Source of the DNA: a virus
Taxonomy: Duplodnaviria; Heunggongvirae; Uroviricota; Caudoviricetes
Reading direction: 5' to 3' (one strand)
Length of the DNA: 11,345 bases
Virus record (IMG/VR): IMGVR_UViG_2537561714_000026
In this document: in pieces, positions 9,001 to 11,345 of the stretch
How positions within the stretch are numbered: the stretch's first letter is position 1
How the letters are laid out: each line of letters begins with the position of its first letter
Program-made: the position numbers

Positions 9001-11345
9001 AGGCGCAAGAAGGCGAACCTATCCATTGAAACGGTCAGAAGCGCATCGCGCTCGACGACCGAAGTCCCCACTAACACCGTTAACGAAAGATCAAAGTCTT
9101 AGAAAAAAATGACGTTTCTTTGATGGACTTCCATCCGTAAAAATCAAATTTTGAGAAAAAGTACTTATAGAAATTAATCGCTCTATAAGGATAAGTTGAC
9201 GTTAGTTTAAAGTGATAAAACATTAAAGAAAAAACGTAAAATCAAATACATAAAATAAGTCACCAAGGGATCATTTTCAGAAAACAACGTCAACGTAACG
9301 TCAACTCTGTAAGAACTTTTTTGGTCACTTTTTGGGTTGAATGTACGTAAAAATCCCCAGCAGTGAAATTTGAGCGCGTAAGCACAATTCTGAGGGGCTT
9401 TTTGTCTGTAGGTTAGGCAGTGTAACTAACAATACAAGAAGTTAGCTCTGACTAACTATTTAATTAACTTTTCAATCTAATTGCGTTAGATATTATACCC
9501 TAACGCAATATTTTTAATTCAATAATGTCTGTAAATTGTTATTACTTATAATTATACATTTAACTATATCTACATTGGCTGCTTCCAATTACTACTTACG
9601 TAACGGAATCTCGGATCCTCTGTTTTTGGCTCGGTATAATAAGAATCATCAATAGTAAAGTTCGACGCTAATTTATCCCGAAGCCCACCTAAACGTTCAA
9701 TGCTTGTTAGTTCGTTAGTAACATCCTTGAAAACGGTAGAAAATGCTTTATGTTGTTTAGACTTCATAAATTCAGGAGTGCTCAGTGCAAACTCTTTATC
9801 AGGCAAACCTGGAATACCCACGAGTCCTGTCAATGAATTTATACATTTTATCAAAAAACTGCCTTGAATACCTTGATTTGATGGAACACCGTAGCTTCGT
9901 TTAATATCTCCAGATATTTTATCTAAATCACTTAGTAATTTTGTTACTTTTTTATTTCCTGCACTTATCCCCGATTCATCGTAGGTCACATGAATCTCTC
10001 GGATTACATCTCGACACGTACGAAAATGATCATGTGTTCTAAGCTCTAAAGCTGAATTGATAACTTGAGAGACATTTCCTGTTTCGTTTGCTAGCCATGC
10101 AGAAAATATTGGTAAATCTAATGAAATAGTAGATGTGCGTCCATGATCTACAATTTCAGATCTTGCAGTACTGATTTTATCAGACAACGATTGCACCAAC
10201 CTTGCAGTATAATCATGACCAAAAGCACCTGTTTTTTTCATCCAATGCAATTGATATGCATGCCTTATTGGATGAATAAATGAGTCTGCTTTAAAATGCT
10301 TAGCAATGACGCTGTAATAAATAGATTTATATGCCAACCAATTTAGCGATGCGATAAACATTTCAAGTGAACGAGTCATACCTCCTTTACCGCGAGTAGA
10401 TTTTTCCCTTTCTAGTTCAAATTCACGCTCAGTATATTCATGTCCAGATGAACTCACTAGCTTCACATCGGTTGACCAGTACCCTTTCGTATCAGAAGCA
10501 TCTGATAATTCATTAAAAATCGATGCACTTAGTTCACTATATTTCGCATATTCAGGAGTACCGGGCTGACCAAGCATTTTCATTGTTAAGTAATACACGC
10601 TAGACCGAAGATCCCATGTGCAAATCATATTCAGCTTAAGCATCTCTACAAGTTGCCTAAAATCATCGTCAACAAACTCCCCACCTCTAATTTCGGAAGT
10701 AATTTGCCGAGATTCAACTTGTGCTAACTGATCAAGTTCACTGAGTTGAAAATCACTTTCAGATACAAATTTAATAAAGTCAAATTTAGCAATGCGTTTA
10801 TCTCTATATTCTTTTTTATAATTATCTACACAGATCAGGGTATCGTAAAAAAGTATCGCTTGAATAAGATTTTCAAAAGCGACTAAATCTCCGTTAATAG
10901 TATCTGGATTCTTAACAAGAATATCACCCAGTGTTCTTTCGACTGCTGTTAACGAAGCATTATCAATCAACGCATAAGACATTAAACTACCTCCATTAGA
11001 TAATATCTAATAACATTATATTTCAATTAGGTTTAAAAATTGTGATACTTATGACAGATTTGAGTGACATTTTATCAATCTACTGATTTTGATGGTGAAA
11101 TTTATTAGAAGGTATGCGTAGTGCTACGGGAGAAATGAGAAACGCGCCCAGCAATGGCGCATCCTTTCTTAAGCAAGTTGGCTAGTATCTATAGCATCCA
11201 TCCAATCAGGAGCAATTCCCAAACGTTCCGCGAACTCTTCATTGGTCACGTCTTCCATTGAGAGACTAGCCAGACAATCGTTAATTTCAGAATAGACGGG
11301 GGAAAGTAATAGGTATTCCCGCAACTCTTTCAGGTCTTTTTCCAT

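What the first reader, a model, noticed from the sequence alone, without database searches (positions are those of the whole stretch)
9570..10982. AT-rich orphan gene for a 470-aa protein with no recognisable motif, sitting in a prophage remnant: candidate undescribed anti-phage defence or exclusion gene
Seen in sequence: a 1413-nt minus-strand ORF with a near-ideal SD (GGAGG, 7-nt spacing) and a TATAAT -10. It is flanked by non-coding AT-rich DNA on both sides (457 bp downstream, about 185 bp upstream containing a terminator for the preceding gene), so it looks like a self-contained transcription unit. My hand counts give roughly 30-40 percent G+C, against about 50 percent for the adjacent phage genes, which indicates separate horizontal acquisition. 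Reading the protein I find no Walker A, HNH, PD-(D/E)xK, reverse-transcriptase or other signature I can name. Established knowledge: prophage ends and tRNA/integrase neighbourhoods are hotspots for single-gene defence morons (abortive infection, superinfection exclusion). Inference: this is such a cargo gene, possibly of a family not yet described.
Basis: partly seen in the sequence, partly recalled or inferred. Interest (0 to 1): 0.78.

Follow-up and report, generated by a model that had tools for sequence, protein, structure and literature searches.

The report
Mobile one-gene candidate defence cargo
The gene (ECs3238 of E. coli O157:H7) is real but not an orphan: it belongs to a widespread, unnamed family that moves between bacteria as a single gene, sits in a swappable cargo slot, and is a good but untested candidate for a new anti-phage nuclease.

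Summary
The ORF, its Shine-Dalgarno site, TATAAT box, AT-rich flanks and low G+C (36% against 50%) are all confirmed. "Orphan" is wrong. The protein (ECs3238) belongs to a compact family of about 314 clusters at 50% identity, nearly all 460-475 aa, found across Proteobacteria with outliers. Every source calls it hypothetical, and it has no Pfam, NCBIfam or PADLOC match.

It travels alone. It is a gene cassette between attC sites in Vibrio vulnificus, Stutzerimonas and others, and copies at least 90% identical span four bacterial orders.

In E. coli it is not part of the P22-like remnant. It fills a variable slot in a small element integrated at the argW tRNA gene and truncated in O157. Other strains carry there a SIR2 protein, PADLOC candidate PDC-S06, an HNH nuclease, ATPases or unknown modules.

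Most likely it is a self-contained sensor-plus-nuclease defence protein. That rests on context and fold alone.

The parts
9570..10982 (-). Coding sequence of the 470-aa protein (ECs3238 / WP_000119352.1), member of an unnamed family of about 470 aa
   Evidence: ORF list and sequence. RefSeq annotation. Full-length match to PHROG 13435, function unknown. Homologues.
10473..10982 (-). Codons 1-170: N-terminal alpha/beta domain with a PIN/VapC-like fold. It is the most conserved part and carries D7, D32 (both 100%), E37 (97%), D47 and D53 (92%), D124 (79%), and invariant R16 and G19.
9573..10385 (-). Codons 200-470: mainly helical C-terminal region with invariant P238, R240, P291, R324 and a conserved C-terminal WKxPM tail. 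It is more variable than the N-terminus and is the proposed sensor/regulatory part.
10990..10994 (-). Shine-Dalgarno GGAGG, 7 nt before the ATG
11015..11020 (-). TATAAT -10-like hexamer with no good -35, directly abutting the GTTATTAG box
   Evidence: Not reported as a full promoter by the scan.
11007..11014 (-). GTTATTAG: aligns with the attC R' box (GCGTTATAAC) that precedes the gene in the Vibrio and Shewanella cassettes. Possible remnant of a cassette 5' boundary.
   Evidence: Flank alignment, coordinates. Inference only.
9424..9543 (-). attC-like imperfect palindrome downstream of the stop. Outer arms TAACAAT/ATTGTTA, a bulge, a second stem and two inner hairpins. Status inconclusive.
   Evidence: DNA fold z = -3.4, with 0-1 of 200 shuffles as stable. 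Flagged by the detector. However, the 3' arm also occurs in elements with other cargo (L048, L060).
9480..9509 (.). Perfect 10-bp inverted repeat (ATTGCGTTAG / CTAACGCAAT) with a 10-nt loop and no T-run. Partly conserved in Dickeya.
9419..11104 (.). Variable cargo slot of the argW element as filled in O157 (about 1.65 kb). Backbone homology to elements with other cargo stops at about 9418 on one side and about 11060-11104 on the other.
   Evidence: blastn of flanks and boundary alignments
11169..11345 (-). 58-aa backbone gene (PHROG 35119) with a possible helix-turn-helix. It accompanies several unrelated cargoes, so it is not a cognate partner.
   Evidence: (72% identical in L047). Terminator at 11140-11164.
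8205..8900 (+). 3' part (231 codons) of the element's rolling-circle Rep/relaxase-like gene, truncated where it meets the P22-like tail-needle fragment
   Evidence: 97% identical to residues 55-285 of the 285-aa protein of L047. That protein matches PF23343 REP_ORF2-G2P.
8901..9418 (.). Conserved non-coding backbone segment of the element (84-89% identical in other E. coli), ending in a terminator-like hairpin plus T-run at about 9355-9405

Best explanation
ECs3238 is a mobile, single-gene anti-phage (or anti-mobile-element) defence cargo.

Shown:
- It belongs to a compact family of fixed architecture, about 470 aa.
- It spreads as a one-gene unit: as integron cassettes, in defence islands and as lone insertions.
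- In E. coli O157:H7/O55:H7 it fills the variable cargo slot of a small argW-integrated element.

Inferred mechanism: the protein is a self-contained sensor-effector. The highly conserved N-terminal domain has a PIN/VapC-like fold. Its invariant acidic residues (D7, D32, E37, D53) would bind Mg2+/Mn2+ and cut RNA, or possibly DNA. The larger, faster-evolving helical C-terminal half would keep the nuclease off until it detects an infection cue. Cleavage then stops phage replication, possibly at the cost of the cell (abortive infection).

The steps from 'PIN-like fold' onward are inferred, not shown.
For: - Single-gene autonomy: no conserved neighbour in 31 GTDB loci or in 25 upstream/downstream ORFs. 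In V. vulnificus the gene lies exactly between two attC repeats spaced 1580 bp apart.
- Integron cassette status: attC-bracketed next to an IntI-like integrase in Stutzerimonas. attC sites start 4-11 nt after the stop in Alteromonas, Halioxenophilus, Syntrophales and Ectothiorhodospira. Integron cassettes are a documented reservoir of defence genes (10.1101/2024.07.02.601719; 10.64898/2026.03.17.712381).
- Recent wide transfer: one cluster at >=90% identity spans Stutzerimonas, V. cholerae, Vreelandella and Shewanella. Gene G+C is far below host G+C in many loci.
- Slot company: the same E. coli slot holds PADLOC candidate PDC-S06 (E=0), a ThsA/DSR-like SIR2 protein (4e-12), an HNH endonuclease, P-loop ATPases and unknown modules.
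- Neighbours elsewhere: AbiGi, a TerB_N/BrxC-like/DEAD trio and Mrr in Salmonella. AbiTii and a PIN_8 protein in P. fluorescens. Among the +/-2 neighbours of the GTDB homologues: HamA/HamB, LmuB, AriA, AbiLi, mad3 and TIR.
- Conservation: D7 and D32 invariant, E37 97%. The N-terminus is most conserved and residues 250-450 most variable, as expected for effector plus sensor.
- Expression: transcribed and condition-responsive in Sakai.
Against: - No experiment links any family member to phage resistance.
- No match in PADLOC v2.
- Several homologues are lone insertions among housekeeping genes, with no defence neighbours: Azospira, Shewanella, Aeromonas, Dickeya.
- The defence enrichment among neighbours was not tested against a formal background, and ABC-ATPase models (AriA, LmuB, AbiLi, mad3) may hit the same proteins.
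- The canonical third and fourth PIN acids are only partly conserved (D105 65%, D124 79%).
- I could not inspect model coordinates, so clustering of the acids is unverified.
- Some slot occupants (ParA-like protein, IS elements) are not obviously defensive.
Confidence: 0.42

Rival explanations
1. An accessory cassette gene with a function unrelated to phage defence. Examples would be an RNA-processing, stress-response or regulatory enzyme that benefits the host under particular conditions, or a factor used in competition between mobile elements.
For: Most integron cassettes have unknown and diverse functions. Several homologues sit alone between core genes: after recBCD in Aeromonas, beside parC/parE in Azospira, and in Dickeya and Shewanella. 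Expression in Sakai responds to plant root exudate. No defence-library match. The slot also holds a ParA-like gene.
Against: Patchy distribution with near-identical copies across orders, low G+C relative to the host, and recurrent placement beside known defence genes and in a slot shared with SIR2 and PDC-S06. This is the typical signature of defence cargo rather than of a metabolic trait. No metabolic or regulatory domain is detectable.
Confidence: 0.3
2. A VapC-like toxin of an addiction (toxin-antitoxin) module that stabilises the mobile element, with the upstream small gene, or an internal domain, acting as antitoxin.
For: PIN-like fold. In the window a small 58-aa gene with a possible helix-turn-helix lies upstream on the same strand, the classic VapBC order. 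Small ORFs precede the gene in Dickeya (DUF6979) and Stutzerimonas.
Against: The 58-aa gene belongs to the element backbone and accompanies unrelated cargo. It is separated from the gene by its own terminator and 186 bp. Upstream small ORFs are unrelated to one another. The V. vulnificus cassette holds the gene alone. At 470 aa the protein is 3.5 times the size of VapC.
Confidence: 0.08
3. A moron or superinfection-exclusion gene that belongs to the P22/Sf6-like prophage Sp16, as the annotation and the first reader imply.
For: It lies inside the feature annotated 'prophage Sp16; P22-like phage'. It has a PHROG family. IMG/VR calls the region viral.
Against: No homologue in 50,697 GenBank phages. 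In 2.9 M IMG/VR contigs there are only the O157 regions themselves and two hits at 33% identity. The flanking genes (Rep fragment, 58-aa gene, serine recombinase) belong to a non-phage argW element present with other cargo in many E. coli that have no P22-like genes there.
Confidence: 0.04
4. A decaying, functionless relic stranded in a degenerate composite island.
For: The element is truncated in O157. Two strains carry an IS1203 insertion in the region.
Against: The ORF region is >=99% identical in 317 genomes. The family is under strong purifying selection, with many invariant residues down to 21% identity. It is transcribed.
Confidence: 0.03

Closest known systems
PIN-domain ribonucleases (VapC toxins; Pfam clan CL0280)
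   Different: No sequence or profile similarity. The protein is 470 aa with a large extra helical region. There is no cognate antitoxin. The later catalytic acids are only partly conserved.
Phage-defence genes carried as integron cassettes (for example Ogmios, Cernunnos, Belenos and Sirona of the V. cholerae superintegron, and cassettes from mobile integrons)
   Same: Short, promoter-poor units of one or two genes bounded by attC sites in Vibrio and other chromosomal integrons.
   Different: None of the cassettes described in the preprint read here matches this family. No phenotype is known for this family.
Variable defence hotspots of small integrative elements (P4-like satellites and P2 prophages; Rousset et al. 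2022, from my own knowledge)
   Same: A conserved backbone with an integrase at a tRNA gene, and one slot holding mutually exclusive cargo that includes defence-type genes.
   Different: The backbone is different: a rolling-circle Rep/relaxase-like gene, a 58-aa gene and a serine recombinase, with no P4 or P2 genes. Most occupants of this slot are unknown to PADLOC.
Single-protein sensor-nuclease abortive-infection systems (for example PrrC/RloC anticodon nucleases, some Avs proteins; from my own knowledge)
   Same: The proposed logic: one polypeptide with a conserved nuclease head and a variable regulatory or sensor part.
   Different: No ATPase, STAND or HEPN module. The HEPN Rx4-6H motif was tested and is not conserved. 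Architecture and fold differ.

Membership tests
PIN-domain superfamily | Alpha/beta/alpha Rossmann-like fold with a parallel sheet, structurally superposable on VapC/PIN domains | tested here: met
PIN-domain superfamily | Three to four conserved acidic residues forming the metal site (after strand 1, in helix 2/3, after strands 3 and 4) | tested here: inconclusive
   D7 100%, D32 100%, E37 97%, D53 92%, but D105 65%, D107 57%, D124 79%. Spatial clustering could not be checked because no coordinates were available.
PIN-domain superfamily | Sequence or profile similarity to a PIN-clan family | tested here: not met
   No Pfam hit for the protein. No PIN-clan family among weak hits of 86 members at E<=10. 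hhalign against a VapC profile gave 0.4% probability (that profile was narrow, Neff 2.0).
VapBC-type toxin-antitoxin module | Co-conserved, translationally or operonically linked antitoxin gene upstream | tested here: not met
   No conserved neighbour. The 58-aa gene is backbone and has its own terminator. The Vibrio cassette holds the gene alone.
Known or candidate defence systems (PADLOC-DB v2.0.0) | HMM match to a system component | tested here: not met
   0 families at E<=1.
Integron gene cassette | ORF bounded by attC recombination sites, within an array or next to an integron integrase | tested here: met
   This applies to homologues. V. vulnificus attC repeats at L036 9848-9978 and 11428-11558. 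Stutzerimonas attC at L039 9905-9979 and 12023-12097, beside an IntI-like integrase. attC directly after the stop in L003, L005, L024 and L025, with hairpin folds.
Integron gene cassette | The E. coli copy itself retains cassette boundaries | tested here: inconclusive
   GTTATTAG box at 11007-11014 and an attC-like fold at 9424-9543 (z -3.4) imply a 1584-bp unit, against 1580 bp in Vibrio. But the 3' arm is shared with elements carrying other cargo, and no integron integrase is nearby.
P22/Sf6-like prophage gene set | Homologues at a syntenic position in P22-like or other phage genomes | tested here: not met
   No tblastn hit in 50,697 phage records. IMG/VR holds only the O157 regions and two distant hits.
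HEPN nucleases | Conserved Rx4-6H motif at the start of a helix | tested here: not met

The most novel reading that the evidence does not exclude
ECs3238 founds an undescribed family of single-protein immune effectors. In this reading a cryptic PIN-like nuclease is fused to a helical sensor domain with no significant match in PDB or viral structure libraries. The family is disseminated across at least four orders of Proteobacteria, and distantly to Clostridium and Spirochaetes, as an integron cassette. The 'Sp16 prophage' of O157:H7 is in part a previously unrecognised argW integrative element whose cargo slot is a hotspot rich in further unknown defence candidates.
Probability: 0.35. Interest if true: 0.72.

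Novelty: new variant of a known kind. Interest (0 to 1): 0.56.

Why it matters
If the gene protects against phages, it adds a new, compact, single-gene immune family. That family is present in two major pathogens (E. coli O157:H7 and Vibrio cholerae) and is easy to test and engineer. The work also shows that part of the annotated O157 'prophage Sp16' is a different mobile element. Its cargo slot holds SIR2, PDC-S06, HNH and several wholly unknown modules in about 10% of complete E. coli genomes, which makes it a ready-made place to look for further defence systems. If the gene gives no phage phenotype, it is still a clear example of one gene hopping between integrons, defence islands and integrative elements.

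Tried and rejected
- Sequence libraries (Pfam, NCBIfam, PADLOC) and PDB by sequence and by profile: nothing.
- First AF2 model from 34 similar sequences: too weak (pLDDT 57.7). It was replaced by a model from 86 diverse sequences.
- Foldseek against PDB and BFVD: no significant hit. The afdb50 library was unavailable.
- Weak Pfam matches across 86 members at E<=10: no PIN-clan signal.
- hhalign of the N-terminal 172 columns against a VapC profile: 0.4% probability. The VapC set retrieved was shallow (>=73% identity), so this test is weak.
- HEPN Rx4-6H around R240: rejected, because H246 is not conserved.
- Domain swaps in distant members: none. All are full-length relatives.
- Partner gene or antitoxin: none conserved.
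- A short 45-nt 'attC remnant' (window 9498-9542): does not fold (z +1.2), so rejected. The longer 9424-9543 candidate folds but is ambiguous.
- Strict RYYYAAC/GTTRRRY pattern search: missed even the true attC sites. It was replaced by a relaxed, shuffle-calibrated detector that is still insensitive (the known V. vulnificus site scored below the 99% threshold).
- Rfam: only tRNA-Arg.
- Literature: no paper for WP_000119352. One transcriptome mention of ECs3238. No matching system in a 2026 integron-cassette defence screen or in keyword searches.
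Full report
**1. The observation**

The window carries a 1413-nt minus-strand ORF at 9570-10982 (ATG to TAG, 470 aa). GGAGG lies at 10990-10994, exactly 7 nt before the ATG. 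A TATAAT hexamer lies at 11015-11020, although the promoter scan found no acceptable -35 partner. Upstream there are 186 non-coding bases, which include a hairpin plus T-run at 11140-11164 that terminates the preceding 58-aa gene.

The gene has 36.2% G+C (GC3 25.7%), against 49.9% for the adjacent P22-like genes and 43.8% for the window. An open frame of 470 codons in such AT-rich DNA is far beyond chance (about 1e-15 by my estimate). The physical observation is therefore correct.

Two details need correction. The distance to the next annotated gene downstream is 669 bp, because the ORF at 8903-9112 is not annotated in RefSeq. And the protein is not an orphan.

**2. Where the window comes from**

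The DNA is 100% identical to the argW region of E. coli O157:H7. In strain Sakai the gene is ECs3238 (NP_311265.1), inside the 8.5-kb feature annotated 'prophage Sp16; P22-like phage'. Among 5,426 complete E. coli genomes it occurs in 317, all at >=99% identity. Those listed are O157:H7 or O55:H7. A published Sakai transcriptome reports it induced 11.8-fold in spinach root exudate and repressed 2.3-fold with lettuce cell-wall polysaccharide, so it is transcribed (PMC4940412).

**3. The family**

- A word-indexed search found 233 homologues at 54-86% identity in Dickeya, Vibrio, Salmonella, Shewanella, Aeromonas, Pseudomonas, Stutzerimonas, Undibacterium, Chromobacterium and many metagenomes.
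- An exhaustive profile search of 1.84 billion representatives found 314 clusters at 50% identity, nearly all 450-480 aa.
- Members that seemed to match on one half only are simply divergent full-length relatives. The architecture is fixed, with no domain shuffling.
- Outliers reach a Spirochaete MAG (33%) and a Clostridium kluyveri plasmid (34%).
- Every source names the protein 'hypothetical'.
- There is no Pfam, NCBIfam or PADLOC match. The only library hit is PHROG 13435, function unknown.
- In an 86-sequence alignment reaching down to 21% identity, D7, R16, G19, D32, L132, P238, R240, P291 and R324 are invariant.
- The first 75 residues are the most conserved part and residues 250-450 the most variable.

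**4. How it moves**

No neighbouring gene is conserved across the family. This was tested with 31 loci from GTDB genomes and by a relaxed comparison of the ORFs immediately upstream and downstream.

Integron cassette contexts:
- In V. vulnificus the gene lies exactly between two attC (VVR) repeats 1,580 bp apart in the chromosomal integron array, so it is a one-gene cassette.
- In Stutzerimonas it is bracketed, together with one extra 167-aa ORF, by 75-nt attC repeats next to a divergent IntI-like integrase.
- A shuffle-calibrated detector finds attC sites (YTATAAC...GCGTTAT) beginning 4-11 nt after the stop codon in Alteromonas, Halioxenophilus, Syntrophales and Ectothiorhodospira. Nitrosomonas, Shewanella and the known V. 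vulnificus site score just below threshold. The sites that were folded (L003, L005) form the expected hairpins.

Evidence for recent transfer:
- One cluster at >=90% protein identity contains Stutzerimonas, V. cholerae (about 190 contigs), V. paracholerae, Vreelandella and Shewanella.
- In most hosts the gene's G+C is well below that of its surroundings, for example 0.41 against 0.63 in Chromobacterium.

The family is essentially absent from phages. There is no tblastn hit in 50,697 GenBank phages. In 2.9 million IMG/VR contigs there are only the O157 regions themselves and two hits at 33% identity. It is also rare on plasmids, in 4 of 72,556 records.

**5. The true carrier in E. coli**

Other E. 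coli share with the window only the non-coding segment at about 9100-9410. Following that lead showed a small element integrated at tRNA-Arg (argW), with a conserved backbone in this order:
- integrase
- small regulator-like genes
- a rolling-circle Rep/relaxase-like gene (PF23343)
- a conserved non-coding stretch ending in a terminator-like hairpin
- a variable slot
- a 58-aa gene
- a serine recombinase (Resolvase domain)

This is documented.

The window's 231-aa ORF at 8205-8900 is the 3' part of that Rep gene, 97% identical to residues 55-285 of the intact 285-aa protein. In O157 the element is therefore truncated where it abuts the P22/Sf6-like tail-needle fragment. The 58-aa gene at 11169-11345 is backbone too (72% identical in L047).

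Backbone homology stops at about 9418 on one side and about 11060-11104 on the other. The O157 cargo is thus about 1.65 kb and contains only this gene.

Some 550 of 5,426 genomes carry the backbone. Occupants of the slot seen here:

| Occupant | Where seen | Library result |
|---|---|---|
| 821-aa + 330-aa pair | L047; query >=80% covered in 148 genomes | no Pfam or PADLOC match |
| 470-aa gene (this finding) | 317 genomes of the O157:H7/O55:H7 lineage | none |
| 877-aa AAA ATPase | L062 | PADLOC candidate PDC-S06, E=0 |
| 826-aa SIR2 protein | L060 | ThsA SIR2 model, 4e-12 |
| 395-aa HNH endonuclease | L061 | no PADLOC match |
| 544-aa Sll1717-family P-loop ATPase | L050 | none |
| 227-aa + 313-aa pair | L048 | faint HEPN/RES N-terminal hit |
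| ParA-like protein | L049 | AAA_31 |
| IS-ridden version | L051 | not scanned in full |

This is the pattern of a cargo hotspot enriched in defence-type genes.

**6. Contexts elsewhere**

- Salmonella: the homologue lies in a CP4-57-like island beside AbiGi, a TerB_N/BrxC-like/DEAD-helicase trio and an Mrr-type nuclease.
- P. fluorescens: beside AbiTii and a PIN_8 protein.
- Among 115 proteins within two genes of the GTDB homologues, recurrent matches include Hachiman HamB and DUF4365 (HamA), Lamassu LmuB/SMC, AriA, AbiLi, mad3, TIR, ParE, integron-type integrases and a terminase. I could not count loci individually or compare with a background, and several ATPase models probably hit the same proteins.
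- Against the association, copies in Azospira, Shewanella, Aeromonas (just after recBCD) and Dickeya are lone insertions among housekeeping genes.

**7. Structure**

With 34 similar sequences AlphaFold gave a poor model (pLDDT 57.7). With 86 diverse sequences it gave pLDDT 83.7 and pTM 0.87. The first ~200 residues are alpha/beta and the rest is mainly helical.

The N-terminus 'MSYALIDNASL' resembles the PIN strand-1 motif. D7, D32 and E37 are invariant or nearly so. Against homology:
- No PIN-clan Pfam model hits any of the 86 members, even at E<=10.
- hhalign against a VapC profile gives 0.4% probability. That profile was narrow.
- The later acidic positions are only partly conserved.

**8. 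Most likely function**

The evidence is:
- a compact family of fixed architecture under strong purifying selection
- autonomous one-gene mobility through integrons, islands and an integrative-element slot
- company with defence genes
- a conserved nuclease-like head with a more variable tail

It best fits a single-protein sensor-effector defence gene that cuts nucleic acid when an infection cue is sensed. I put this at about 0.4.

The main rival, at about 0.3, is an accessory cassette function unrelated to phages. A VapBC-like addiction module is unlikely, because the upstream 58-aa gene is backbone with its own terminator and the Vibrio cassette holds the gene alone. A prophage moron is unlikely, because phages lack the family.

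**9. Is the E. coli copy itself a captured cassette?**

For:
- GTTATTAG (11007-11014) aligns with the attC R' box that precedes the gene in Vibrio and Shewanella.
- The 120 nt after the stop (9424-9543) fold with paired outer arms, z = -3.4.
- The implied unit is 1,584 bp, against 1,580 bp in Vibrio.

Against:
- The 3' arm also occurs in elements carrying other cargo.
- A shorter candidate did not fold.

This question stays open.

**10. Novelty**

No paper mentions the protein accession. A 2026 screen of Vibrio integron cassettes that found new defence genes describes none like it. Keyword searches found nothing matching.

The kind of thing, a mobile single-gene defence candidate with a nuclease-like head, is familiar. 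The family, its C-terminal region and the argW-element hotspot are not described in anything I could search. I rate it a new variant of a known kind, of moderate interest, with a simple decisive experiment.

Noticed in passing
window 5373-6509 (minus strand): A chimeric ORF. Residues 1-217 are the N-terminal part of a P22 gp16-type DNA-ejection protein. Residues ~219-364 match the C-terminal part of an O-antigen acetyltransferase (Acyl_transf_3; PHROG 3333/6705). G+C drops to 0.28-0.30 over 5200-5800. It looks like a deletion that fused an ejection gene to an Sf6-type oac serotype-conversion gene.
   Followed up: partly
window 8205-8900 and the junction at 8205-8222: 'Prophage Sp16' is a composite. 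A P22/Sf6-like remnant (intS, ejection genes, tail-needle knob fragment) is fused to a truncated argW integrative element. That element's Rep gene starts mid-gene and overlaps the tail-needle fragment by 18 nt.
   Followed up: yes
L047 7592-11046 (E. coli MRSN346355); query >=80% covered in 148 complete genomes: The commonest alternative cargo of the slot is a two-gene module (821 aa + 330 aa) with no Pfam or PADLOC match at all. It is another uncharacterised candidate system in many clinical E. coli.
   Followed up: partly
window 1-3684 and 3805-3876: In this strain a lambdoid prophage end (MT-A70 methyltransferase matching a PADLOC type II methylase model, DUF1627, HTH, integrase at 2440-3684) sits on the other side of tRNA-Arg argW (3805-3876). 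Two integrases therefore flank the tRNA. Sakai lacks this prophage at that place.
   Followed up: partly
cluster of P0028: Proteins >=90% identical are shared by Stutzerimonas, Vibrio cholerae, V. paracholerae, Vreelandella and Shewanella. This is very recent transfer of the cassette between orders. The V. cholerae context could not be viewed.
   Followed up: partly
L007/L008/L013 5741-9713; also L015 and L023: In five Pseudomonas loci a 1321-aa protein lies upstream on the same strand: about 290 bp upstream in L007/L008/L013, about 3.8 kb upstream in L015, and fragmented in L023. It has only a faint PADLOC PDC-M02A match. SEC-C motif hits in the neighbour scan may belong to it. It could be a lineage-specific partner or just a neighbour.
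   Followed up: partly
window 9441-9456, 9480-9509 and ~9355-9405: Three strong hairpins lie in the non-coding DNA downstream of the gene: a 6-bp stem, a perfect 10-bp stem without a T-run, and a backbone terminator-like hairpin with a T-run facing the Rep gene.
   Followed up: partly
E. coli MA11 (H1) and F3113 (H111): Two O157-type strains carry an IS1203 (IS3-family) insertion within the region matched by window 9100-11345. I did not determine whether it interrupts the gene.
   Followed up: no
window end 11345; L064-L067: Four IMG/VR 'viral' contigs hold the gene at 100% identity. The loci returned start 363 nt before the gene, the same distance as the window end, and two of them (L065, L067) begin at base 1 of their contig. 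The window may therefore derive from a predicted-prophage call whose boundary cuts the argW element at the start of the 58-aa gene.
   Followed up: no
L039 11503-12006; L034 11570-12256: In Stutzerimonas a 167-aa ORF shares the cassette with the homologue. In Salmonella a 228-aa ORF follows it. Neither has any Pfam family on record or any PADLOC match, and they are unrelated to each other.
   Followed up: partly
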